Assembly (NCBI GenBank): GCA_040143965.1
Contig: JASJQH010006960.1
Coordinates: 1-32,237 of the forward strand
Direction: 5' to 3'
Origin: Basidiobolus ranarum
Lineage: Eukaryota
Length of the DNA stretch: 32,237 nucleotides
Each line of letters starts with the position of its first letter. Position 1 is the first letter of the stretch. The position numbers and the translations under genes were made by a program. Of the stretch, positions 4,843 to 25,723 are shown piece after piece. The notes below the pieces were generated by a model that ran no database searches, was not told where the DNA came from, and saw nothing but the letters and a program-made list of their open reading frames with translations.

Positions 4843-6406
4843 ATGAGAGTCGACTTCTCTTATTCACGCATTTTCAAATTTTTATTTTTAACTTACCTAG
4901 TTATTTCCATTCTCTATATATTCCTTTTCTTTTATGGTTCTCCACACAAAACACATGACAAGCTCACACCAGTCACCCCTAGCAAAGTCCCACAACATAC
5001 CCAGCCTTCTGTAGAGGATAATAAGAACGAGATCTTATGGGCGAATAACCAAGGTACTTTCACACACACACGCACACACACTCTCTCTCTCTTGTCGCTT
5101 CAACGTGATTTGGTGTCTAATGGTGGTTGTTGATATATTTTAGGTTCAACTGTGCCTTTATCGGAGTCTTATGTTTATTCCAAGCTTTTTTCTGAAACCA
5201 TGCAACCCACAAACCTCAAGCCATATTACTACAGAATGGAGCCTGCTCCTTCTCCAGACGATATCACCGTAGCCACTTTGATTACCGCAGATCGTTTTCA
5301 GGTTTTTGAAAAGTTGGTCAATAACTATAAAGGTAGGGGAAGGCTTAGTTCTCACTTGAACAACTGTACACCTTTCTAAGTATAATATTTCATATAGGAC
5401 CCATCTCAGTTGCACTTCATATCTCTGATGACCATAATCAGGCCAACATATTACGTCGACTGGATAACATGTATCAATCTAATCCACTTATGAAGAAATA
5501 TGTGGATATTCATTTGATCATCGATAAATTTGAAAGACAATTTAATTATTGGAGAAATGTGGCTAGATTCTTCTCTCGTACCGATTACTTTTTACTGTTG
5601 GATATTGACTTTTACCTATGTACCGATTTCCGTCAAAGCCTTCAAAACCATCCAGAGTTAATGAATAGATTAAAGGATGGTAATGTGGCCATTGTTCTAC
5701 CTGCCTTCGAATATGATGTCTTAAATGAAGGCCGTGATGCTAAGGTATTCCCTCGGGTGAAATCGGATCTGGTGAAATTGGTAGATGACAAGAAAGTATC
5801 CATGTTCCATAAGGGATGGACTCGAGGACATGGCTCCTCCAATTACACCCATTGGTATCAAGCAGACACTCCTTACACCGTAACCGAATACAACTTCAGC
5901 TATGAGCCATATGTTATCGTTAAGAAAGACGGTATCCCTTGGTAATTAGTGGCTTCGAGATAATGAATGAATCTACTCGAATCATACTAACTGGAATTCA
6001 CTTGTAGGTGTAATGAGCGTTTCATTGGCTATGGTGGAAATAAGGCAGCTTGCTTATTCGAAATCTATCTTTCTGGAGTGGATTATTGGGTTTTACCACA
6101 GGATTTCATTATTCATCAGAACCATGATTATCTTGAGGATACTCGAAGAATCGAGGTAATGATTAACTCTTCTGGATAAGATTCACATCAATCTTAACTC
6201 ATTTCTCTCTCTTTTAATAGCGTAACTTCAACAAGAAAGTGTACCAAAATTTCCGTGAGGAAGCTTGTTTCCGTTACTTTAGGAATTTCTTATCTCGTAA
6301 TGAATGGGGCACACCTAAAGCAGATAATCTCAAGAAGGAATGCAGTAAGAGTGTCCCTAATTTCTTGAAAGATACCACGGCCTACCAGTCAGAGACTTTA
6401 CAATAA
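4843..6406 (+). CDS. Glycosyltransferase family 49 (LARGE/B4GAT1-like) type II membrane protein; 5 exons, 425 aa
   Basis: Exons 4843-5053, 5144-5332, 5398-5941, 6008-6155, 6221-6406. N-terminal TM anchor, DITVATL, GPISVALH, NYWRNVAR, DxD motif LDIDF, VLPAFE, YEPYVI, CNERFIGYGGNKAAC, FIIHQNH. Confidence 0.88.
5061..5092 (+). repeat. Compound (CA)n(CT)n microsatellite in GT49 intron 1
   Basis: cacacacacacgcacacacactctctctctct. Confidence 0.85.
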
Positions 6407-6810: not shown

Positions 6811-8619
6811 TTACTCTAAATCCCAGGAGTCGGTATGCAAGGGCTTTTGTCGTTGTCTTTCATTCCAATTTAGCACTTTGCGTAGTCCGTTAAACCAATC
6901 TATCGATTGATCATCCTTACAAATAGATGGCAATGGGTAATTGGAGGCGGTGATGGTTATCGAGTCTCCACGGTTCAGTTCTACTCGATTATGTCCATCG
7001 AATGATGCCTAATAAATGGATTTGTGGGGTGATATTACACAGTCTGGTTAGTATTCTTCATTGAAATCTAACAACACGGGAACTTACCCATGCGGTGCTT
7101 CTTGCTTGGGACGGTACACATATTCTCAACTCTTTATATCCTGGAATAACCATAGGACGACAGGTCAAGGTATGTGGACAAATTTGTGTAACCAATATTG
7201 CACACATTTCAGGGTGAATAAGTGACCCTCCAGCGGAAAGTGAATAAGCGGTGGATCCTGTAGCGGTAGCTATGACTAAACCGTCCGCCAAGATGGTAGT
7301 CAAGTGAATATTATCAACAAACAATTCCAACATCACCATATTCGGATTCGCTCCACGGTCTACTACCAATTCATTTAATACATGATGTACACCACGTTTG
7401 GTAAGTGCACATCCACCTTCAGCCCCAGGGTCATCAAGACAAAGGTTGCATAGACTAGGTTCGGATTCGATATTGGACAAGTTCTCTATGTCCGGTACAG
7501 AATTGGCTATTGTTTTGTATACGGTACATTTGATTCTCATTCGAAGATTGGCATGAATTGATTTACTGTCAATTATGTGACCAAGTGTTTCTTGAAATTG
7601 ACCAAAATTGAAAACCGTTAAGAATCCTAGAGATCCCAGATGAAACGAGAGGATTGGTGGTACTTTTCTTTGAAAGAGTAAAGAAGTATAAAGCACAGTT
7701 CCATCACCACCTAAAGTGACCGCCAAATCAACGTACTCAGGAAAGTCTTGATGAGACCAAAACTTTAATCTGTCTACAATCGCAGGACTTTCAGAGGCGA
7801 TAGTTTCATACTTGAATGCAGAGTTATTCTTGAATGTATCTCCAACATAAACTGTAAGGTTCTCGTATTTTTTGAGAAGCCAGGTAGCCACTAATTTCGT
7901 GTGTTTCACCAGCTCTGGTGTAGGTTTGGTGACTATAACAATATCCGTGACAATCTCCAGCTCGACCAAGTATGATTTCAATTCACTTATAGAATTCGTT
8001 ACTTTTGAGTATCTATTTATCAAGCTTGAAACGCAAGTACGATTTTTCGCGCAATTCTCTGGTGTAGAATTCTAACAGAAAGAGTGTTGTTTTTCTTAGT
8101 CTCCAATATAATCAAGTAATCCTGTGAGAAAAAATATACCTCATCGGTAATTCGTGATTTGATATGGATTCTTTTGTGTCCTTGTTCAACAATCTCTTTT
8201 AAATATCTCCAAGCATCGTTATTTTCTTTGTAGTTGGGTTATGATCAGTTATATGTAAAAAAAAATTACAAAATGAGGGAGATGTTACCAGTTATGGTTA
8301 TCCAATCTCCTTCAAAATCTTTCCATAATAATTTGTAATCAGTAAGCTGAAAGTCGTTATATTCCTTTTGAAATTGCTCAACAAGGAGAGAGAAGACCAG
8401 ATTTTCTTCTATTCACGAGACGTAACGAGGGTAAAAGAAAGAAGTCAGTATGTGTTTGAGAATAAAAGGTTAAAAGATAGTAGGAAGATCCCAATGTAAA
8501 CCATTTATCGTAAAAACCAATGTGTTATTTAAAAAAAGGACATATATACCTTTGATAAAGACAAAGTTGGTGTCTCCTCGATGTGAAAGTTTAATACGCA
8601 ATTGAGAGGGATCGTTCAT
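6811..8619 (-). CDS. ATP-NAD kinase with N-terminal PB1 domain; 5 exons, 485 aa
   Basis: Exons 8619-8550, 8408-8289, 8225-8140, 8071-7088, 7008-6811 are in frame, with an in-frame TAA two codons before the ATG. Kinase motifs TLGGDGTVL, GSLGFL, VLNELVVDRG, DGLVIATATGSTAYSLSAGG, ASFDG and LNWNERQRQKP are intact. The N-terminus has RIKLSHRGD and KLLWKDFEGDWITITENND (PB1 Lys and OPCA motif). Confidence 0.88.
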
Positions 8620-9480
8620 ATTTTATAAATGTTCTATATTGTTTGGTGAATCCTTTGAAGGAATTCAATCAAGTGATGGTAGTAGATGCGTATAACAGAC
8701 TGAAAAAGAAATCAAATAGTAACAGTATAAGCTTGAAGGTAAATCAGAAACATTACTAATACTCTCTAGTCTTGGATTTTTCTGGATTCGATTTACAGTC
8801 ATACACATGACATGCGTTTAGGACTGAGTCCAGAATAACGATTCAGTTACAATGTCACCGGCTAAAATTAATCTCGATATGACTTTCAATAATTCGGTCA
8901 ACGATGATCGATCAATGACATAAAAGACAGAAGGTTTTGTGACTACTAATTCCGATGATCTGATGACGCACACTAAAGATTTAAGGGTACTAACAAGCAC
9001 CCAGTGTAAGTCGTCACATCAAATGAAAGAGGGTATTATTTTACAGTCACAAATCGACAAATCGCTTCTACATATTGAGTAAGTGGATATCAATCTGTCT
9101 GATGTGGAAATACCATGAATGCACTGTTAATGTACCGTAAATGCTCTCATTCTTGAATTGATTTCTTGGTTTTAAAAAAGATTTTCATAAGAGACGGGGT
9201 GAACCAAAGATACATCTCAAATATGGATGAAGAACATCGTGAAAAGATAGGATTATTACAGAAGTGATGGGTGTACGGCAGGTGAAGAATAATGAAACCC
9301 GGGGAAATAATAGAAGGCCGCAGTGCAATTGCTCTGCAGTACAAATACGATCGGTCAATACAAGAATATCATTTTGTTCACGTTAGACACAAATAATGGG
9401 ATTCCGAAAAGTTCTTCTGCCACTCGGATGTATTTATATGCTCGCCAACACTCACTACAGTGTTGGCCATCTACTTAACA

Positions 9481-12400
9481 TTAAGCCAGATAATTATATA
9501 CACTCGCATCAGATTTGTCCCGCTCCAAATACTCCCGATCAATTAGAGATTCTATTCGCTTCTTGAGATCAGAGGCCTACATAAGAGATGATGAGTTAGC
9601 ATTTAGTGAGTTGACGAGCTTGAGGCTACAAGTATACCTTAACAGGGAATCGCAGCTGTTCGAAAAGCTCGTTCATCAGTAACGTGTGGCTTAACTGTTT
9701 CCGTGTTTTCATAATTCTTACAATGGCCGCATCTACTTGATATTGGCGATCTTGGAACACTCTCTCCGTAGTATTAGTATTCTCTTCAACCTAGAAGATG
9801 GAGAAAAGGTAAACCGACTTAGTACGCGTACTTTCCGTTGGATTCAACTAGAATAAAATTACCGTCTCTTTCATTTGTATAGCATTAACTTTGATTCTGA
9901 AAAGAGGAGCCGTAAAATCCTTGTTAAAAGAGAAATTATCTGCTTCGTCGACCTCGCGCCCTTTGGGGTATTTGGTCAGCACCCGAACCTTTCCGCATGC
10001 TAAAGATTGTAGCGTGCGTTCGAGTTCCTTTAGTTCTGAGTGGAGAAGCGTTAATGGATTGGTATTGATATGTGGTATTATGTGATCTTATGACAAACCT
10101 ATATTAGTAGCTTCGAAGATTTCCTTAAAGCTCATTTTAGTTTCAATATCAACGCCATTAAAAAGTAAAAGAACCATCGCCTGGTATAATGATACTGCAA
10201 GCTCCTTTTTGCCCTGAAAATTAAATACAATGAATGAGTATATGTCTATTTGCCAGTCATGGAGGCTCCATCTCACCTTAGGGAAGTGGGCTTTCAGGAC
10301 ACAATGGCCTAGAGAAGGTTGCCACATTAGACGACGACCATGATGCTTACTGAGGTAGAAAGACTTGAACACTTCTTGATATTCAGTCATCTATGTCATT
10401 GAAAAGTTAAGATTCTGGAAAAAAAAGTAGGCGAAAGATGATTTGGCATCTACCTGCTCGGCTAAAGTGATTTCTGCAGGAGGATAATTAGGCCAGTATC
10501 CTTGAGTTAAAACTGACACGTTAAGCTCGATGTCTTTACATAACTCTTTGTACTTTTGAGTTTGACGGAAAGAGATCATGATATCTCTAGAGACATCCAT
10601 ATCCTTGAACATTCCTTCTAATTTGCTAGTAAAGCTGGCCCCGCATTCGGTCTTCAGTTTTGAGAGCATAGATTTTTCAGCATCAAAAGAGGCGCTTTTA
10701 TTGAGTAGTAAGCGTTTGGCAAGATCCCGCTTGTAAAATGCCTCAAACACATCCTTGCCTTGAATGAATCTAAATAATATTAGCACATTATCTAAAATAC
10801 TCTCAAGCTCTTCATCTGTGGCAGTTTTATTCCCAGTGCGGAGCTTTGCATCGACAAACTTGGCAATCATTTCAGCTGGCTTGTTCTGTCTGACATTAAT
10901 GAAAGACTCAAAACTTTCTTTTAACGTGTTGAAAAAACTCTCGTTTTTTAGGAAACTTGTGGTAAGAATATCATCTAATTTCATCTTGAAGACAAGAAGG
11001 TCCTGCACCATCGTACTGTCTCGGCTAACATCAGTAACAATCTCAAGTCCAGCCTTCTTTACGTATACACCATAGAAAGTTTTCAGTTGGTCTAAATGGC
11101 CAACTCTGGCGAGCAACGAGTATAATCGAGCAAGATCTTCTTTTTGGCCATTGCTTACTAGACTATCAAAACCCTTCTCAAGAAGTAACGAGACGGGATT
11201 TGCAATTAGTTCTCGCTCGATCAATTCGATAAGAGGCTTTCTAGTCTCCTTATCCAAGTAGTGAATCGTCCGGTCTTTTTCTTCTTGTAGCTTCTGCTCG
11301 ACATAAAGAAGGTAACGAGACACTTCCAAAGCATGAACTCGGGTGTTACTCTCTTTGCGATAGAATAGCTCTGTAGATTCTAAGAAAGCACTTTCGAATC
11401 CGTTGAAGTATATGCCCAGATCTATAAACATTCTCAGTAAAGATTTGAGAATTGCTCGGTTGATAGACTCTCCAGATCTTTCTTTCTCTATTAAACAAAG
11501 CAGTCCGTCAAGTGTTTTCTTGCGAATCTCCTTGGATTCCATGACATGGTCTCTAAACAGGTCTAATCCCATATCCCTATCAAACTGAGATGTCAACTTC
11601 CAGTATAGAACAAACTTTTTAATAACCTCGATACTTACCACAACGAAGACAGGCCAGATGTCTGTAATACATAGGTACGATCGAGGTACAGAAAGATACT
11701 CCTGATCATGATCTTTATATGGACTATTAGTAATGCCGACAACAACAAGGTAGTGCGAAGTTTGATTTACCATTTGGCGGCAATGATCTTTCCAGCAATT
11801 GTCAATGGCGGTCAAGAAAACCTCATTAGTTGTGATGTTACTGAAAAAGTTGTTGAGTCAGGATGCTATTCAAATACAGATAAGTAATATGACTTGCGTA
11901 CTTTTTTAGTTTTGCTAGTTCTTCTGTTACATGCGTCTCGCATTCAGCTTTAAGCTTTCGGTACAGAGAATTCGCCATTTTATGATGACACAAATTTTCA
12001 CAAGCCTATCAAGAGAAATTTAATCAGTTTGGACCGGTATGACTAGGAAGAAAATAGGCAGTCACCTTGTATAGTTCCTCTAAACTATCTGGAACTGGTT
12101 GGCTTTCATGTATCGCATTGACAGCACCTTTAAGCTTCCGCCAAGTATCTGCCTCGTAATTTTCGGGTAGCTTAGGTTTGACTAGATAGGATGTGTGAGC
12201 AGATAGTCTTTGAATTTTTATTTTTGCACAAGTGTGGCGATTTATCGTCAGTTAACTGACCTTTGAAACTTTTGATCACCAATTTCTTCACCGGAGCTTT
12301 ACCCAATCCAATGCGAGAGCCATTTGAAGAATTAAACGAACCATTTTGGTCAATATTTTTTCTAGATGTTTGTTGATTGTTGGTTGAAAAAATATTATCC

Positions 12401-14383: not shown

Positions 14384-14483
14384 AGTCGCGAATTTTACTG
14401 CGGTCAATTGTTGATACTATCTAATGGCACTTTTTTTTTTAAATAAAGTAAACCAGGTAGACTCCAAGAAGGCAAGATATATC

Positions 14484-17400
14484 ATGGATCTTAAGAACTG
14501 GGTATCAGATAACATATTAAAGTTTCTTGGCCTTTCTTCTAGAGAAGTTGTAGAGTATATTATTACTTCGGCCAAAACTTCCACCAGTGCTGAACATCTA
14601 TATACCACTTTAAAAGACGAAGGATTTTCAGCAAACGATTCAGCGAAAAATTTCGCTTACGAGTTATATTCGCGTGTTCCTCACCAAGCGCCAACCTCTA
14701 AGAGAAAAAATGAGAGAACTGAGGAGCAACGTTCTAGTAAACAAACAAAAACAACTACTTCCAAATTCGAACCAACAAGCGAAGATAACTCCCAAGTTGA
14801 CATAAACTTATCTTCTAAAAAATCTAAAGGTAAACAGATAAGAAAAAGAGGAGATGACGGCCAATGGGATAGCGATGAAGAGCAAATCAATAGATACCAA
14901 CCACCCGAAGAACCCCTTCTTGATCCTGAAACAGAATTCGAAAAAGCTGAGGAAGAAAGATTACGAGATTTGAAAGAGCGAGATGAATTTTCCGACAGAC
15001 TTAAAAATAAAGACCACGAAAAGACTAAGAAGTTGATAGAAGATAGATCTGGTAAAGACGAAACCGAGGCTATAAAGCGTCGCAATCTGGCGGACGATCC
15101 TGAAGCAAGAAAATCCGCACTTCCTAATATTCGTGAACGCTCTCGCCAAGAATACCTGAAACTACGTGAAGAACAACGACTAGAACTTTTGAGGAAGAAA
15201 ATTGAGGATGAAGAAGTTTTGTTTCACGATGAGCAGTTGACCAAAAAAGAAATCGAAGCCCACAAATACAACAAAGAGGTGCTAAGGCTCGCCGAAGAAC
15301 GCCTAAAAATCGACGACAAATTTGATGGGTACGTTATGCCTGAAGACTATATCACTGAAAAAGGAAAAATAGATCGCAAAAAGAAGGAGGAGGTACTCTA
15401 CAAACGTTATGAGGAAGACCAAAACCAAAAGTTTGTCTCCGAGCAGGACCAATGGGAGATGCATCAAATTAACAAATCTCAGCTCAAAGTTGGCGCAAAG
15501 GATCGCCCGAAACATGATGAACAAGACGAATATGACTATGTGTTTGACGAACAACAAATTGATTTCATTTTAGAAACTACCCTTAATGCGAAGAAGGCCG
15601 AGGAAGATGAGGGAGAGAAAATCAGTGAATGGGAAAGAAAGCAAATGTCCATCAAAGAAGTTCGTCGATCACTTCCTATTTTTAGTTTTAGAGAGCAACT
15701 TGTCCAAGCAATATCTGAGCATCAAGTACTTATTATTGTTGGAGAGACAGGCTCCGGAAAAACTACGCAACTCCCACAGTACCTGCATGAAGAGGGCTAT
15801 ACTAAGGGTGGTAAAAAGGTTGGTTGCACACAGCCTAGAAGAGTCGCAGCCATGAGTGTTGCCGCTCGTGTGGCTGAAGAAATGGGAGTTAAACTCGGTT
15901 ACGAGGTTGGCTATTCTATCCGCTTTGAAGATTGCACCTCCGACAAAACTGTTATGAAATACATGACTGATGGTATGCTTCTGCGTGAATTTTTAACAGA
16001 GCCTGATTTATCTAGCTACAGCGCTTTGATTATCGACGAGGCTCACGAAAGAACTCTGCATACCGATATCTTATTTGGGTTGGTTAAGGATATCGCAAGA
16101 TATCGCCCTGATTTGAAGCTTCTCATCTCTAGTGCAACAATGGACGCGCAGAAATTCTCGGAATATTTTGACGATGCCCCTATCTTTATGATTCCTGGCC
16201 GTCCATTCCCTGTTGAGATTTACTATACTAAAGCCCCAGAAGCGAATTATTTGCAAGCCGCCGTTACGACCATCATGCAAATCCATGTTACCCAGGACAA
16301 GGGTGATATATTGGTATTTCTTACAGGTCAAGAGGAGATTGAAAGCGCTCATGAAAATTTGCAGCAAACGTGTAGAGTTCTAGGGAGCAAAATTAAAGAA
16401 TTGATCATCTGTCCTATTTATTCTTCTCTCCCATCGGAGATGCAAAGCAAGATTTTTGAACCTACCCCAGACGGAGCCCGGAAAGTTATTCTTGCTACCA
16501 ACATCGCTGAGACCTCTATTACCGTTGACGGAATTGTTTATGTGATTGACCCTGGCTTTTCTAAGCAAAAATGCTACAATCCGAGAACCGGTATGGAGTC
16601 TCTTGTGGTTACGCCATGTTCAAGAGCATCTGCTGATCAAAGAGCTGGGAGAGCTGGACGTGTTGGTCCAGGAAAATGCTTCCGTCTCTACACTCAATGG
16701 GCATACTTCAATGAAATGGACATGAATACAATTCCAGAAATTCAAAGATCCAATCTTGGAAACACTGTCTTGCTGCTGAAAAGTTTAGGCATCAATGATC
16801 TAATTGAATTTGACTTCATGGATCCACCACCCGCTGAAACTTTAATCCGAGCCTTAGAACAATTATATGCTCTGGGTGCTCTAAACGATCGTGGCGAGTT
16901 AACAAAGTTGGGTAGAAAAATGGCTGAATTGCCCACAGACCCTATGTTAGCTAAAACCATAGTTGCCTCCGAAAAATTCAACTGCTCAGAGGAGATATTG
17001 TCCATTTGTGCCATGTTAACTGTTCAAAACTCCGTTTTTTATCGACCAAAGGATAAGAAATTCCACGCCGATAAAGCACGTCAAAATCTCACTCACCCCG
17101 AAGGAGATCATCTCACATTACTGAATGTCTGGACTCAGTGGGTAGAAACAAATTTCTCTATGCAATGGTGTTACGAAAATTTCATTCAATACCGGTCTAT
17201 GACAAAGGCACGAGATGTCCGTGATCAATTAGTGGGACTCTTGGAGAGAATTGAAATTGTCCCCGTCTCAAATCCTAATTCTGCCGATACTACACCCATT
17301 AAAAAAGCGCTTACATCTGGATTCTTTTATAACGCGGCTCGGTTGCAGCGCTCCGGCGACGCGTACCGTACCGCCAAGCACAGCCAAACTGTCAATATCC

Positions 17401-17594
17401 ATCCTAGTAGTGGTCTATTTGAAGAAAGACCGAAGTGGGTTATCTATTTTGAGTTGGTACTTACCTCCAAGGAATTCATGAGACAGGTTACGGAGATCAA
17501 ACCTGAATGGCTATTGGAACTGGCACCACATTATTATAAAGCGAAGGAAATCGAGGAAGACTCGAAGCGTAAGATGCCCAAGGCGCCTCGTTGA
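14484..17594 (+). CDS. DHX16: Pre-mRNA splicing DEAH-box RNA helicase Prp2/DHX16 (S. pombe Cdc28-like); intronless, about 1036 aa
   Basis: [52 protein letters not shown]. The N-terminus (MDLKNWVSD…, [18 protein letters not shown]) is DHX16-type. An in-frame ATG at 14424 is a less likely start. Confidence 0.93.
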
Positions 17595-18158: not shown

Positions 18159-20245
18159 TCATTTCTTGGATCTGTTCTTTCTTTTGGTGGGATCAAGTTC
18201 CTTCTTACGAAGACGAATGGACTCGGGGGTCACTTCTACAACTTCATCGTTACCAACATATGCGATGATTTCTTCGAGAGACATGGCTTTGATAGGACTA
18301 AGCTTGATAGCTTCATCCTTACCGGCGGCTCTCATATTATTGACTGCTTTGGCGCGTACAGGATTGACCTCAAGGTCAGAGGTATCCTTGCTGTATTCAC
18401 CAATTACCATTCCAGTGTAGATTTTGCTACCAACTGGGACAAAGAGTTTTCCTCTTGGCTCAATCAAAGAAAGAGCATATGAGGTTGAATCACCGACTGC
18501 GGTTGATACCAAAGCACCTTTACGGGTTTTCTCCATTTCACCTCTATAAGGCTCCCATGCATGGAAGATGTGATTCAGAACACCCAATCCACGAGTGTCG
18601 TTTTTGAACTCAGCGTGGTATCCCAAAAGACCACGAGTGGGGCAATGGAAAATAAGACGAGCTTTATCTCCAACCTCAGTGAAAATCTTCATTTCAGCCT
18701 TACGTTGAGCCAATTTCTCAATGATTGTTCCAGCAAACTCGTGGTCCACATCAATGGTTACTTCTTCAACTGGTTCGAGGGTAGCACCAGTCTTGGGATC
18801 CTTTCTAAGAACTACACGTGGTGGAGAAATGGATAATTCGAAACCCTCACGACGCATAGTTTCAATAAGAATACCAAGTTGAAGTTCTCCTCTACCGCAG
18901 ACTTCAACACCGTCCAAACCAGGTGTTTGGGATACTGCAAGAGCAACATTAGTCTCGGCTTCTTTCAAGAGACGATCCCGAATCATAGTGGAAGTGAGAT
19001 ATTTGCCCTCTTGTCCGGCAATTGGGGAGTCATTTACACCGAAAAACATAGAGACAGTAGGTGGATCGACAGGTGTGGAAGGAAGGGGCTTTAGAACTTC
19101 AGGATTGCAGAGAGTTGAGTTGACAGTGGCATTTTTGACACCAGCAATGGTAATAATATCACCAGCTCCAGCTTCATCAACAATGATTTGCTCAAGACCA
19201 GTACGAGTGAATAGCTTGGTGACACGGGCTTCATCAGTAACGTTGCCTTCGGGGTCAAGTGCATGAAGACGATCATTCACCTTGATAGTACCAGAAGTGA
19301 TTTTACCCAAGAAGCACTTACCCAAGTAGGGATTACTCTCGATTTGTGTAACAAGCATAGAGAATGGTGCATCGCGATTTACATCAGGGCTAGGTACGCG
19401 TTCCAATATCAAGTCAAAGAGGGGATCCATATTGGCTTGCTTGTCTTCCATATTTTTAACAGCCCAACCATCTTTGCCAGAAGCATAAACAATTTCATAC
19501 TCAAGTTGCTCATCGTTGGCACCCAAGTTCATGAAGAGATCAAGAAGCTCGCTGTCAACTTCAGCAGTACGTGCGGTGGGTCTATCCACTTTGTTGATTA
19601 CAACCAAAGGTTTAAGACCAGCTTCTAACGCCTTGGAGAGTACAAATTTAGTTTGGGTCATGGGACCTTCTGTGGCGTCCACTACCAACGCGACACCATC
19701 GACCATGGAAAGAATACGTTCAACCTCACCACCGAAATCAGCGTGACCAGGAGTATCAACAATGTTAATGCGATGATTTTTGTACATGATACTAGTGACC
19801 TTGGATAAAATGGTAATACCACGTTCTTTTTCAAGAGCGTTAGAATCCATGACACGAATATCAGACAAATTTTGCAAGGTTCCTGATTGGCGGAGTAAAC
19901 TGTCAACTAGAGTGGTTTTACCGTGATCGACGTGAGCTATATGGTGCATAGATTAGTATCAACCGTGATAAAGACTTTAGGCGAAGGAGGTAGCTACTTA
20001 CCAATGATGCCAATATTTCTGATGAATTTCGAGTCAATAAGAGTTCCAAGTACATTGGTGGGAGCCTCTTCGCTGGCAGCCTCCGGAGTGGCACTTGAAT
20101 AGGCACGCAAGAAGCGATAAGTAGCTTGGCCAATAGACTTGCTAAGTATAGGAGAACGTACATTTGAACGTAAACCAAGCAAGCCGTAGCTGCTCTTAAT
20201 AGGGGCACGAACGGCAGACACAGAAGGGAGTCTTAAAGCAAACAT
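18159..20245 (-). CDS. typA: Translational GTPase TypA/BipA with predicted mitochondrial presequence; 2 exons, 673 aa
   Basis: Exons 20245-20002 and 19936-18159 restore IRNIGIIAHVDHGKTT. Also ERGITILSK, DTPGHADFGGEVER, NKVD and the TypA-specific GRGELQLGILIETMRREGFEL and EVTPESIRLRK. The first ~50 aa are R/S/L-rich with no acidic residues. Confidence 0.93.
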
Positions 20246-24084: not shown

Positions 24085-25723
24085 ATGGTCAGCTTCATAC
24101 CTTTCATATGTTTATTGAATAGTTTTAAACTGTGCTTTTATTACATATCTTTCCACTGATTACTGTATATGATTACTCACGCAAACATTCTCTTCCTACC
24201 AATAGGTCAACTACGTCCTGTTCGAAAGCGCTTCTGGCTACGCTCTCTTTGAGAGACTTGAATCCGAGGAAATCGGTTCCAAACTTGACGAAGTTCAAGA
24301 AAGCTTCTTGGATCTCGCCAAGTTCGGTAAAATGATTAAGCTCAAGTCCTTCGTCCCCTTCAAGAGTGCCGCTCATGCTTTGGAGAACGCCAACGATGTT
24401 TCTGAGGGTAAGTTTCAGTTTTGTTGATTCTCAGTCGTAGTAACATTGTTGTTAAACGTTGATTATCTTTTCTTAGGTATCTGTAACGAAACCTTGAAAG
24501 CTTTCCTTGAGATGAATCTTCCTAAATCTAGCAAGAAGTCCAAGGTTGAGTTGGGTGTTACCGAGAAGAATCTTGCCGGTTCCATCAAAGCCGAAGTTGG
24601 TGTTGAGTGCTCTACTAGTGAGCTTGCTCAAGAGCTTATCCGTGGTATCAGATTCCACGCTGATAAGCTTCTTAAGCAATTGAAGGAGGGTGATTTGGAA
24701 AAGGCTCAATTGGGTTTAGGTCACTCTTACTCTCGTTGTAAGGTTAAGTTCAATGTCAACCGTTCCGATAACATGGTCATTCAATCTATCGCACTTCTTG
24801 ATCAACTTGACAAAGATCTCAACACTTTCTCCATGCGTGTTAGAGAATGGTATGGATGGCATTTCCCCGAACTTTCCAAGATTGTCAATGACAATGCTCA
24901 ATTCGCCAAGATTGCTAAGTTCGTTAAGAACAAGAGCACTTTGACCGAAGAGAGCCTTGAAGGCCTCGAAGAGATCACTGGTGATGCTGATAAGGCCAAG
25001 CAAATTTTGGATGCTGCTCGTTCCTCCATGGGAACTGACATCTCCGAATTCGATTTGCTTAACATTGAAAACTTCGCCACTCGCGTTGTTTCCTTGGCCA
25101 ACTACCGCAAGGAACTCCATGATTACTTGAACAGCAAGATGTCCCACATTGCTCCTAATCTTTCGGAACTTATTGGTGAAGTTGTTGGTGCTCGTCTTAT
25201 CTCCCACGCTGGTTCTTTGACCAATCTTGCCAAGTATCCCGCTTCCACTGTCCAAATTCTTGGTGCTGAGAAGGCTCTCTTCAGAGCTCTCAAGACCAAG
25301 GGTAACACTCCCAAGTATGGTCTTATCTACCACTCCTCTTTCATCGGCCGTGCTGGTGCCAAGAACAAGGGTCGTGTCTCTCGTTTCCTTGCCAACAAGT
25401 GCTCCATTGCCTCCCGTATCGATTGTTTCCTTGAGAAGCCTACCACCAAGTTCGGTGAAGCTCTTAAGCAACAAGTTGAGGACAGATTGGCCTTCTACGA
25501 ATCCGGTGCCGCTCCCAGCAAGAATGCTGACGTCATGAAATCCGTTATGGATAACCTTGATGATGATGAGGTTGCTGTCCCCGCCAAGAAGCGTGATGCT
25601 GAGGATGCCGATACCGACAAGAAGAAGAAAAAGAAGAAGACCGAAAAGGCAGAGAAGAAGTCGGAGAAGACTGAAAAGAAGTCTGAGAAGAAGGACAAGA
25701 AGAAGAAGAAGAAGTCTGAATAA
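24085..25723 (+). CDS. NOP56: Nucleolar protein 56, box C/D snoRNP core; 3 exons, 483 aa
   Basis: Exons 24085-24087 (ATG only), 24206-24407, 24477-25723. [81 protein letters not shown] tail; strong codon bias. Confidence 0.96.

What the first reader, a model, noticed from the sequence alone, without database searches (positions are those of the whole stretch)
8140..8619. NAD kinase fused to a cryptic N-terminal PB1 domain: candidate scaffold-tethered NADP(H) supply module
Seen: three small exons missed by the ORF track splice in frame onto an intact NAD kinase. They encode MNDPSQLRIKLSHRGDTNFVFIKEENLVFSLLVEQFQKEYNDFQLTDYKLLWKDFEGDWITITENNDAWRYLKEIVEQGHKRIHIKSR. This fits the PB1 consensus along its length: the beta1 Lys (RIK), the acidic OPCA motif (WKDFEGDWITITENND versus YxDxDGDxxxxxSDxD) and the closing strand, so it looks like a type I/II PB1 able to pair head-to-tail. 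Established: well-known fungal PB1 proteins include Bem1, Cdc24 and the NADPH-oxidase regulator NoxR, which assemble through PB1-PB1 contacts; yeast Utr1/Yef1/Pos5 and human NADK have no PB1. Inference: this kinase may dock on the Nox/polarity scaffold to supply NADP(H) locally, or polymerise as p62 does. I know of no description of this architecture but could not search for one.
Basis: partly seen in the sequence, partly recalled or inferred. Interest (0 to 1): 0.85.

Follow-up and report, generated by a model that had tools for sequence, protein, structure and literature searches.

The report
NAD kinase with N-terminal PB1 domain
This Basidiobolus gene encodes an ordinary NAD kinase that carries a protein-docking PB1 domain at its front end, an arrangement shared by many early-diverging fungi but apparently never studied.

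Summary
A five-exon minus-strand model (6811-8619) has GT..AG at all four introns. It reproduces a deposited 485-aa Basidiobolus ranarum protein letter for letter, so the upstream exons were already annotated.

Residues 6-89 form a divergent PB1 domain:
- Pfam gives 20.3 bits for this protein, below the 23.6 cut-off; the 81%-identical paralog scores 25.7.
- A profile of 17 orthologous N-termini hits PB1 chains in 12 of 13 PDB matches.
- The AlphaFold model (pLDDT 88) matches PB1 structures at VIA-align ranks 1-23, Z 9.0-11.3.
- A search of 1.84 billion proteins returns NAD kinases and then true PB1 proteins.
- The strand-1 lysine and the acidic OPCA motif are both conserved.

The domain is on 35 of 120 fungal NAD kinases, all within one 52-row clade of chytrids, Zoopagomycota, Glomeromycota and Mortierellomycota. 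None of the 64 Dikarya/Mucorales-type rows has it.

Three literature searches pairing PB1 with NAD kinase found nothing, and the passages read from two PB1 surveys name other fungal families only. UniRef, however, already auto-names the paralog "PB1 domain-containing".

Binding partners, polymerisation and a link to NADPH oxidase remain untested. Splicing has no transcript evidence.

The parts
8550..8619 (-). Exon 1 (70 nt). ATG at 8617-8619. Encodes PB1 strands 1-2, including Lys10 (8590-8592).
   Evidence: An in-frame stop lies one codon upstream of the ATG. The donor is GTATAT.
8409..8549 (-). Intron 1 (141 nt, GT..AG, 31% GC)
   Evidence: Read-through meets a stop (ORF 8470..8622).
8289..8408 (-). 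Exon 2 (120 nt). Encodes PB1 helix 1, strand 3 and the first part of the OPCA motif (W52-T63).
   Evidence: On its own it hits Pfam PB1 at E=0.029.
8226..8288 (-). Intron 2 (63 nt, GT..AG). It splits the OPCA motif.
   Evidence: Read-through meets a stop (ORF 8266..8412).
8140..8225 (-). Exon 3 (86 nt). Encodes the end of OPCA (E64, D67), helix 2 and strand 5 of PB1. Ends in phase 0 after residue 92.
8072..8139 (-). Intron 3 (68 nt, GT..AG). Retention would shift the frame.
7088..8071 (-). Exon 4 (984 nt, residues 93-420). It encodes the flexible linker (93-102, 8042-8071), a helix at 106-123, the NAD_kinase N-domain (residues 136-260, 7568-7942) with GGDGT at 7697-7711, a variable low-confidence insert (residues 283-313, 7409-7501), and the start of NAD_kinase_C.
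7009..7087 (-). Intron 4 (79 nt, GTAAGT..AG)
6811..7008 (-). Exon 5 (198 nt, stop codon included). Encodes the end of NAD_kinase_C (to residue 447) and the C-terminal tail.
8149..8604 (-). PB1 domain as a whole (residues 6-89, spread over exons 1-3).
   Evidence: Pfam residues 7-75. AlphaFold elements E6-13, E16-23, H29-39, E48-53, E59-62, H67-77, E82-89. PB1 fold matches.

Best explanation
The gene encodes a NAD kinase, the enzyme that makes NADP+ from NAD+ and ATP. There is no room for a mitochondrial presequence, because the protein starts directly with the PB1 domain, so it is presumably cytosolic. Its first ~90 residues are a type I/II (AB) PB1 domain, tied to the catalytic core by a short flexible linker. 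I put this identity part at about 0.9.

The mechanism is inferred, not shown. PB1 domains bind one another front to back: the strand-1 lysine face of one binds the acidic OPCA face of the next. This domain keeps both faces. My preferred reading is that it lets kinase molecules associate with each other, and with the 81%-identical paralog in the same genome. NAD kinase cores are themselves oligomers (recalled knowledge), so this would give higher-order assemblies that concentrate or regulate NADP+ synthesis. Docking onto a different PB1 protein is the close second reading. The confidence figure is for the homotypic mechanism.
For: Gene model: see the observation check.

Kinase:
- NAD_kinase scores 76.9 bits and NAD_kinase_C 120.3 bits, both far above their cut-offs.
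- The GGDGT motif, the N325-E326...D330-R331-G332 block and residues of the TGSTAYS-type motif (T361, T363-S369 at 90% or more; L370, S371 and G374 invariant) are conserved in 28 orthologs.

PB1:
- Pfam PF00564 gives E=5.4e-4 over residues 7-75, matching profile positions 2-72 of 84. The paralog scores 25.7 bits, above the cut-off.
- The profile of 17 N-termini hits 13 PDB sequences at E<=10. Twelve are Cdc24, NBR1, PKC zeta/iota or p40phox; best E=0.0033.
- The AlphaFold model has pLDDT 88.3 and beta-beta-alpha-beta-beta-alpha-beta topology.
- The top 7 Foldseek matches are all PB1.
- VIA-align ranks 1-23 are all PB1, Z 11.3-9.0. Generic ubiquitin-like folds score 8.8 or less.
- The profile search of 1.84 billion representatives gives 29 hits. 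I scanned 20 of the 23 new ones: 3 are NAD kinases, 12 are PB1 above the Pfam cut-off (plant NLP type, NBR1 type, small PB1 proteins), 2 are PB1 below the cut-off and 3 have no family.
- The three nearest protein-atlas clusters are PB1, score 0.88-0.89; this is a lead only.

Both binding faces, in 37 aligned sequences:
- position 10: 28 K and 4 R
- D54: 35
- acid at 56: 33
- acid at 58: 30
- acid at 64: 28
- acid at 67: 30
The Lys and OPCA columns coincide with those of bona fide PB1 proteins.

Modular tether: in the full-length model, PB1 and core are confident while residues 93-102 fall below pLDDT 50.

Selection: the domain is kept in 35 of 120 NAD kinases, across at least six lineages.
Against:
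- This protein's own Pfam score is below the gathering cut-off. Only 1 of the 10 proteins scanned passes it, and 4 of 10 show no PB1 hit at E<=1.
- No binding of any kind was shown.
- In the 7 Spizellomycetales sequences the OPCA core has a one-residue deletion and partly lost acids, and 4 have Arg for Lys. This fits poorly with a universally conserved homopolymer and leans towards a heterotypic partner.
- Six clade members with N-termini of 66-115 residues upstream of the core cut show no such domain.
- The tree is FastTree with local support only, and it covers only the 120 best of 8000 scored candidates.
Confidence: 0.45

Rival explanations
1. Heterotypic docking. The PB1 domain binds the PB1 domain of another protein, such as NoxR, Bem1, Cdc24 or the CBS-PB1 protein Mug70. 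This would place NADP+ synthesis next to a polarity or NADPH-oxidase scaffold.
For: - Both faces are present, so either face could serve.
- The Spizellomycetales forms keep the basic residue while the OPCA face decays, as expected if the conserved job is to bind someone else's OPCA face.
- The best PDB sequence match of the profile is Cdc24.
Against: - No partner was identified or tested. No genome is held for this window, so I could not check whether Basidiobolus has Nox or NoxR.
- A passage of PMC2121648 (2007) states that no Nox gene had been identified in Zygomycota. That old grouping holds several of the lineages carrying this fusion, though sampling was thin at the time.
- Dikarya are where the NoxR-Bem1-Cdc24 complex was described (reference 23 of PMC7051960, seen only as a citation). 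They show no PB1-NAD kinase among the listed hits.
Confidence: 0.3
2. Intramolecular regulator. The PB1 domain folds back on the kinase core or on its conserved pre-core helix and gates activity. Precedents are the p40phox PB1-PX contact and the inhibitory N-terminal region of human NADK (the latter recalled).
For: - A flexible linker of about 10 residues would allow folding back.
- Non-canonical intramolecular PB1 contacts are known: the p40phox PB1-PX contact is described in the introduction of PMC7051960 (passage read).
Against: The strong conservation is precisely on the canonical intermolecular faces, Lys10 and OPCA. The tools gave no inter-domain confidence figures, so the model neither supports nor excludes a contact.
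Confidence: 0.12
3. Annotation artefact. The PB1 exons belong to a separate small gene, or are not expressed, and the kinase is made without them.
For: There is no transcript evidence. The two B. meristosporus models P0003 and P0004 lack the N-terminus.
Against: - There is no Met in exon 4 ahead of the catalytic motif.
- All junctions are canonical and in frame.
- The same fusion appears in 35 gene models from many independent genome projects.
- The N-terminus is as conserved between the paralogs as the kinase.
- P0003 is flagged 'partial', and P0004 starts at an internal Met of the pre-core helix.
Confidence: 0.03
4. A generic ubiquitin-like domain rather than a PB1 domain, with some other ligand.
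For: SUMO, UBX, FERM-F1 and TBCE ubiquitin-like domains also match the model.
Against: - These matches all rank below the 23 PB1 entries (Z 8.8 or less against 9.0-11.3).
- Sequence profiles in both directions pick PB1 specifically.
- The OPCA and Lys columns align with those of bona fide PB1 domains.
Confidence: 0.03

Closest known systems
Fungal and animal cytosolic NAD kinases (S. cerevisiae Utr1/Yef1 type, human NADK)
   Same: The same two-domain catalytic core, NAD_kinase plus NAD_kinase_C, with the GGDGT and NE..DRG motifs. The helix before the core is predicted in this protein.
   Different: They sit in the sister clade of 64 rows, which includes a YEF1-like yeast protein (P0066). None of those rows has the N-terminal domain. 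Their N-terminal regions are otherwise unrelated.
PB1 domains of NBR1, aPKC iota/zeta, MEK5/MEKK2/3, p62 and Cdc24 (solved structures)
   Same: The same fold (Z 9.0-11.3, rmsd 2.1-4.1 A over 79-95 residues). A weak but specific profile match. Shared Lys and OPCA columns with bona fide PB1 proteins.
   Different: Only 7-20% identity to these chains. The domain is attached to a metabolic enzyme rather than to a signalling kinase, autophagy receptor or GEF.
The fungal PB1 families listed in published surveys: Bem1, Cdc24, NoxR, CBS-PB1/Mug70
   Same: A PB1 module in a fungal protein. Potentially these are the partners.
   Different: The NAD kinase family is not among the four families in section 9 of PMC7051960 (read in full). 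It is also not among those named in the passages read of PMC2121648. Supplementary lists of both papers were not seen.
aPKC and MEKK2/3-MEK5: enzymes with an N-terminal PB1
   Same: The same design: an N-terminal PB1, a linker, then a catalytic domain. The PB1 serves to assemble the enzyme with partners (recalled knowledge of these systems; their PB1 structures appear).
   Different: Those are protein kinases in signalling cascades. This is a small-molecule kinase of cofactor metabolism.

Membership tests
PB1 domain (Pfam PF00564) | Significant match to the family profile | tested here: inconclusive
   The window protein scores 20.3 bits, E=5.4e-4, below the curated cut-off of 23.6. The paralog P0002 scores 25.7 bits, above it. 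Four other orthologs score 14-16 bits and 4 of the 10 scanned have no hit. The reverse profile search recovers 12 proteins with PB1 above the cut-off among 20 scanned.
PB1 domain (Pfam PF00564) | Ubiquitin-like beta-grasp of about 80 residues with beta-beta-alpha-beta-beta-alpha-beta order, closest to solved PB1 structures | tested here: met
   AlphaFold model with pLDDT 88.3. Foldseek top 7 are PB1. VIA-align ranks 1-23 are PB1, Z 11.3-9.0, above other ubiquitin-like folds. This rests on a predicted structure, not a solved one.
PB1 domain, type II/B face | Conserved lysine on strand 1 | tested here: met
   Lys10 is K in 28 and R in 4 of 37 sequences. The column is shared with the Lys of bona fide PB1 proteins.
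PB1 domain, type I/A face | Acidic OPCA motif (aromatic-x-D-x-D/E-G-D, then further acids; consensus recalled) | tested here: met
   W52-K-D54-F-E56-G57-D58...E64..D67. D54 is kept in 35/37, an acid at 56 in 33/37, at 58 in 30/37, at 64 in 28/37 and at 67 in 30/37. The motif aligns with the DxDGD of true PB1 proteins. It is degenerate in the 7 Spizellomycetales sequences.
PB1 domain | Front-to-back binding to another PB1 domain | not testable with these tools
   This needs binding assays; no usable computational result was obtained.
NAD kinase (Pfam PF01513 + PF20143) | Both catalytic-core domains above the curated cut-offs | tested here: met
   NAD_kinase 76.9 bits (cut-off 25.5). NAD_kinase_C 120.3 bits (cut-off 23.7).
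NAD kinase (Pfam PF01513 + PF20143) | Conserved GGDG(T) and NE..DRG motifs and the glycine-rich TGSTAY-type motif (motif names recalled) | tested here: met
   G213-L219, N325, E326, D330-G332, L370, S371 and G374 are invariant in 28 orthologs. T361 and T363-S369 are conserved at 90% or more.
NAD kinase (Pfam PF01513 + PF20143) | Phosphorylates NAD(H) with ATP or polyphosphate | not testable with these tools
   This needs an enzyme assay.

The most novel reading that the evidence does not exclude
PB1-NAD kinase is a fifth, ancient fungal PB1 family that was overlooked because its PB1 is too divergent for standard thresholds. It was present early in fungal evolution and lost in Dikarya and Mucorales. 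It physically couples NADP+ synthesis to PB1 scaffolds. Either it plugs into the NoxR-Bem1-Cdc24 polarity/oxidase complex, or it cross-links kinase oligomers into PB1-driven filaments or condensates. Either way, cofactor supply would be spatially organised rather than merely cytosolic.
Probability: 0.2. Interest if true: 0.75.

Novelty: new variant of a known kind. Interest (0 to 1): 0.5.

Why it matters
NAD kinase is the only route to NADP(H). How cells control where and when it acts is still being worked out, for example through the regulatory N-terminal regions of the animal and plant enzymes (recalled). A PB1 module hard-wired to the enzyme in a whole clade of early-diverging fungi gives a directly testable case of scaffold-based or polymer-based control of cofactor supply. 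It also adds a family to the fungal PB1 inventory that two published surveys do not name in the parts I read. Finally, it shows that divergent PB1 domains fall below standard annotation thresholds: only 1 of 10 proteins scanned passed the Pfam cut-off. The functional part is still hypothesis only.

Tried and rejected
- Complex prediction with two copies of residues 1-92 returned 'no answer' (score 0.00, controls not run, alignment not used). It says nothing for or against self-association.
Junctions could therefore not be checked on reads, and read laying was not used.
- The genome search 'own': no genome is held. I could not look for NoxR, Bem1, Cdc24, Nox or other PB1 genes of this organism, or fetch the paralog's DNA to compare intron positions.
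- The search for homologous proteins with the N-terminal profile and lengths 'longer' returned only 7 proteins, all already known, among 8000 word-sharing candidates. It added nothing on distribution.
- Paper searches: 'PB1 domain'+'NAD kinase', 'PB1'+'NADK' and 'NAD kinase'+'Phox and Bem1' each returned 0 papers. 'NAD kinase'+'Mortierella' returned 3 papers, irrelevant by title and abstract start. 'NADPH oxidase'+'NoxR'+'Mucoromycota' matched 6 papers (5 listed); none was opened. NoxR combined with names of early-diverging genera gave 12 listed papers, none containing NoxR.
- Rejected after testing: the exons as a chance ORF pattern, a separate upstream gene, and a generic ubiquitin-like domain (see rivals).
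- The conserved His13 first looked specific to this family. The same 'K-x-x-H' pattern occurs in several bona fide PB1 proteins, so I dropped it.
Full report
**1. What is at the site.**

The region 6811-8619 on the minus strand holds one gene of five exons: 8619-8550, 8408-8289, 8225-8140, 8071-7088 and 7008-6811.
- All four introns (141, 63, 68 and 79 nt; 29-35% GC against 33-43% in exons) begin with GT and end with AG.
- The joined CDS is 1458 nt. Its translation is identical to a deposited protein of 485 residues, P0001, named by NCBI 'hypothetical protein K7432_002963 [Basidiobolus ranarum]' and by UniRef 'Uncharacterized protein'.
The claim that the exons had been missed applies only to a naive ORF list, not to the public annotation.

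The small exons are required:
- The long exon-4 frame has no methionine until its residue 178, beyond the catalytic GGDG at residue 121.
- The ATG at 8619 has a stop one codon upstream.
- Retaining intron 1 or 2 gives an early stop (ORFs 8470..8622 and 8266..8412). Intron 3 is not a multiple of three.

**2. The kinase.**

Residues 136-260 and 324-447 match the Pfam families NAD_kinase (76.9 bits) and NAD_kinase_C (120.3 bits). In an alignment of 28 orthologs, G213-L219 (GGDGTVL), N325, E326, D330-G332, L370, S371 and G374 are invariant. T361 and T363-S369 are conserved at 90% or more. Nothing suggests an inactive enzyme.

The full-length AlphaFold model has mean pLDDT 80.8. It shows a confident core, a helix before the core (106-123) and three low-confidence stretches: 93-102, 283-313 and 475-485.

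**3. The N-terminal domain is a PB1 domain.** Six lines of evidence agree.

(a) Pfam PF00564 matches residues 7-75 to profile positions 2-72 of 84, at E=5.4e-4 and 20.3 bits. That is under the 23.6-bit cut-off.
- The paralog P0002 (490 aa, 81% identical in the kinase) scores 25.7 bits and passes.
- Orthologs from Synchytrium, Linnemannia and Entomortierella score 14-16 bits.
- Four of the ten proteins scanned give no hit.

(b) A profile of 17 orthologous N-termini (A1) finds 13 distinct PDB sequences at E<=10. Twelve are Cdc24, NBR1, PKC zeta/iota or p40phox. The other is tektin-4. The best E-value is 0.0033.

(c) AlphaFold on A1 gives pLDDT 88.3 with strands 6-13, 16-23, 48-53, 59-62 and 82-89 and helices 29-39 and 67-77.

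(d) Fold comparison:
- The seven best Foldseek matches are PB1 structures: NBR1, AtNBR1, PKC zeta and PKC iota (E from 5e-5, TM about 0.65).
- VIA-align ranks 1-23 are all PB1 domains or PB1-bearing chains (Z 11.3-9.0).
- TBCE, FERM, UBX and SUMO-type ubiquitin-like domains follow at Z 8.8 or less.

(e) The reverse search of 1.84 billion cluster representatives with A1 gives only 29 proteins at E<=1e-3. Of the 23 not seen before, I scanned 20 (P0139, P0140 and P0142 were left out of the Pfam scan):
- 3 are NAD kinases;
- 12 carry PB1 above the Pfam cut-off, in plant NLP-type (GAF_NLP, in most also RWP-RK), NBR1-type (ZZ + N_BRCA1_IG) or small proteins;
- 2 have PB1 below the cut-off;
- 3 have no family.

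(f) The protein-atlas feature search puts three PB1 clusters first (0.88-0.89), which is lead-level only.

**4. Both PB1 faces are kept.**

Counts are from 37 aligned N-termini: 33 of the 35 carriers below (P0010 and P0030, which hold only part of the domain, were left out) plus four unnamed ones from the deep search.

| Position in P0001 | Conservation (of 37) |
|---|---|
| 10 (strand-1 Lys) | 28 K, 4 R |
| D54 | 35 |
| acid at 56 | 33 |
| G57 | 26 |
| acid at 58 | 30 |
| acid at 64 | 28 |
| acid at 67 | 30 |
| F36 | 37 |

- When bona fide PB1 proteins are aligned to the A1 profile, their strand-1 Lys and their DxDGD..D segments fall in the same columns.
The type names and the OPCA consensus are recalled knowledge.
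- The exception is the Spizellomycetales. All 7 sequences lack one residue in the OPCA core, and 4 have Arg at position 10.

**5. Distribution.**

A local HMM built from 12 clear cases finds the domain in 35 of the 120 best NAD-kinase homologs; 12 of the 35 are the seeds themselves. By the names the carriers are:
- Basidiobolus ranarum (2 paralogs);
- many Mortierellomycota;
- Rhizophagus (2);
- Calcarisporiella;
- Syncephalis;
- Synchytrium (2);
- seven Spizellomycetales.

A FastTree of the kinase core alone, with N-termini cut off, puts all 35 in one clade of 52 rows (local support 99).

| Rows in the 52-row clade | Count |
|---|---|
| Carry the domain | 35 |
| Fewer than 60 residues upstream of the cut, so too short to hold it (three flagged 'partial') | 11 |
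| Longer N-termini without the domain (four chytrids, Piptocephalis, one unnamed) | 6 |

- The sister clade of 64 rows has no carrier. It holds all Dikarya rows including a YEF1-like yeast protein, the Mucorales, and second paralogs from Glomeromycota, Mortierellomycota and Calcarisporiella.
- So the fusion marks a distinct NAD-kinase lineage of early-diverging fungi that coexists with the Utr1/Yef1-type enzyme.
- Caveats: the method is FastTree only; the sample is the top 120 of 8000 scored candidates; there is no outgroup; long branches were flagged.

**6. What is in print.**

- Three full-text searches pairing PB1 with NAD kinase returned nothing.
- Section 9 of PMC7051960 (Sci Rep 2020), read in full, lists four fungal PB1 families: Bem1, Cdc24, Mug70 and NoxR.
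- The passages read from PMC2121648 (2007) name NOXR, Bem1, Cdc24 and CBS-PB1.
- Supplements of both papers were not available to me.
- The architecture is nonetheless visible in databases. UniRef auto-names P0002 and the Linnemannia ortholog P0008 'PB1 domain-containing protein', and P0002 carries PF00564 in the precomputed domains.

**7. Mechanism.**

Shown or well supported: a NAD kinase with a discrete N-terminal AB-type PB1 on a flexible tether. Everything beyond that is inference.

My ranking of mechanisms:

| Reading | Confidence |
|---|---|
| Homotypic association (self or paralog) that cross-links the oligomeric enzyme | 0.45 |
| Docking on another PB1 protein (the NoxR/Bem1/Cdc24 idea) | 0.30 |
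| Intramolecular regulation | 0.12 |

- I favour the homotypic reading because both faces are retained in most lineages. AB-type PB1 domains such as p62, plant NBR1 and TFG commonly self-associate (recalled; p62 and AtNBR1 filament structures are among the matches).
- The one-sided decay in Spizellomycetales is the main argument for the heterotypic reading.
- The NADPH-oxidase link has no direct support here. A 2007 statement that Zygomycota lack Nox weighs slightly against it, with old and thin sampling.

**8. Verdict.**

The fusion is a conserved but unstudied variant of NAD kinase rather than a one-off. It is of moderate interest: a new domain architecture built from two well-known parts, already present in public annotation, with an attractive but untested functional story.

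Noticed in passing
window 7409-7501 (P0001 residues 283-313): The kinase core carries a low-confidence insert (pLDDT below 50) of very variable length among orthologs: 26 to 142 residues between the flanking conserved blocks. In Basidiobolus (CNLC / CGLC), six of the seven Spizellomycetales and Synchytrium microbalum it holds a CxxC pair, in 9 of 28 sequences overall. A redox or metal role is conceivable but was not examined.
   Followed up: partly
window 18159-19952 (-): An uninterrupted 597-aa frame encodes a TypA/BipA-type translational GTPase (GTP_EFTU, EFG_C and BipA_C domains). From recall, this family is typical of bacteria and plastids. It could be an organelle-targeted protein or a bacterial acquisition. 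PMC7466969 (title and abstract start seen) reports horizontal transfer in Basidiobolus.
   Followed up: no
window 9481-11857 (-), 5349-6400 (+), 14415-17594 (+), 24428-25723 (+): The neighbours are ordinary housekeeping genes. A cullin lies upstream on the same strand. A Glyco_transf_49 glycosyltransferase converges on the kinase's 3' end. A DEAH-box helicase and a Nop56/58-type snoRNP protein follow. None carries a PB1 domain or suggests a functional cluster.
   Followed up: partly
proteins P0003 and P0004 (Basidiobolus meristosporus): The two B. meristosporus orthologs pair one-to-one with the two B. ranarum paralogs in the tree, so the duplication predates the species split. Both public models lack the PB1 exons: one is flagged partial and the other starts at an internal Met. 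This is probably under-annotation.
   Followed up: partly
proteins P0054 and P0072 (Chytridium lagenaria, Dinochytrium): Inside the PB1-kinase clade, these chytrid proteins have Arg/Ser/Leu-rich N-termini that look like mitochondrial presequences in place of the PB1 domain. This may be a replacement of the docking module by an import signal. It was not tested.
   Followed up: no
protein P0123 (unnamed, 698 aa): The PB1-like segment sits at residues 346-416, ahead of the kinase domain that starts at 449, with about 345 extra residues upstream. This is either a longer architecture or a merged gene model.
   Followed up: no
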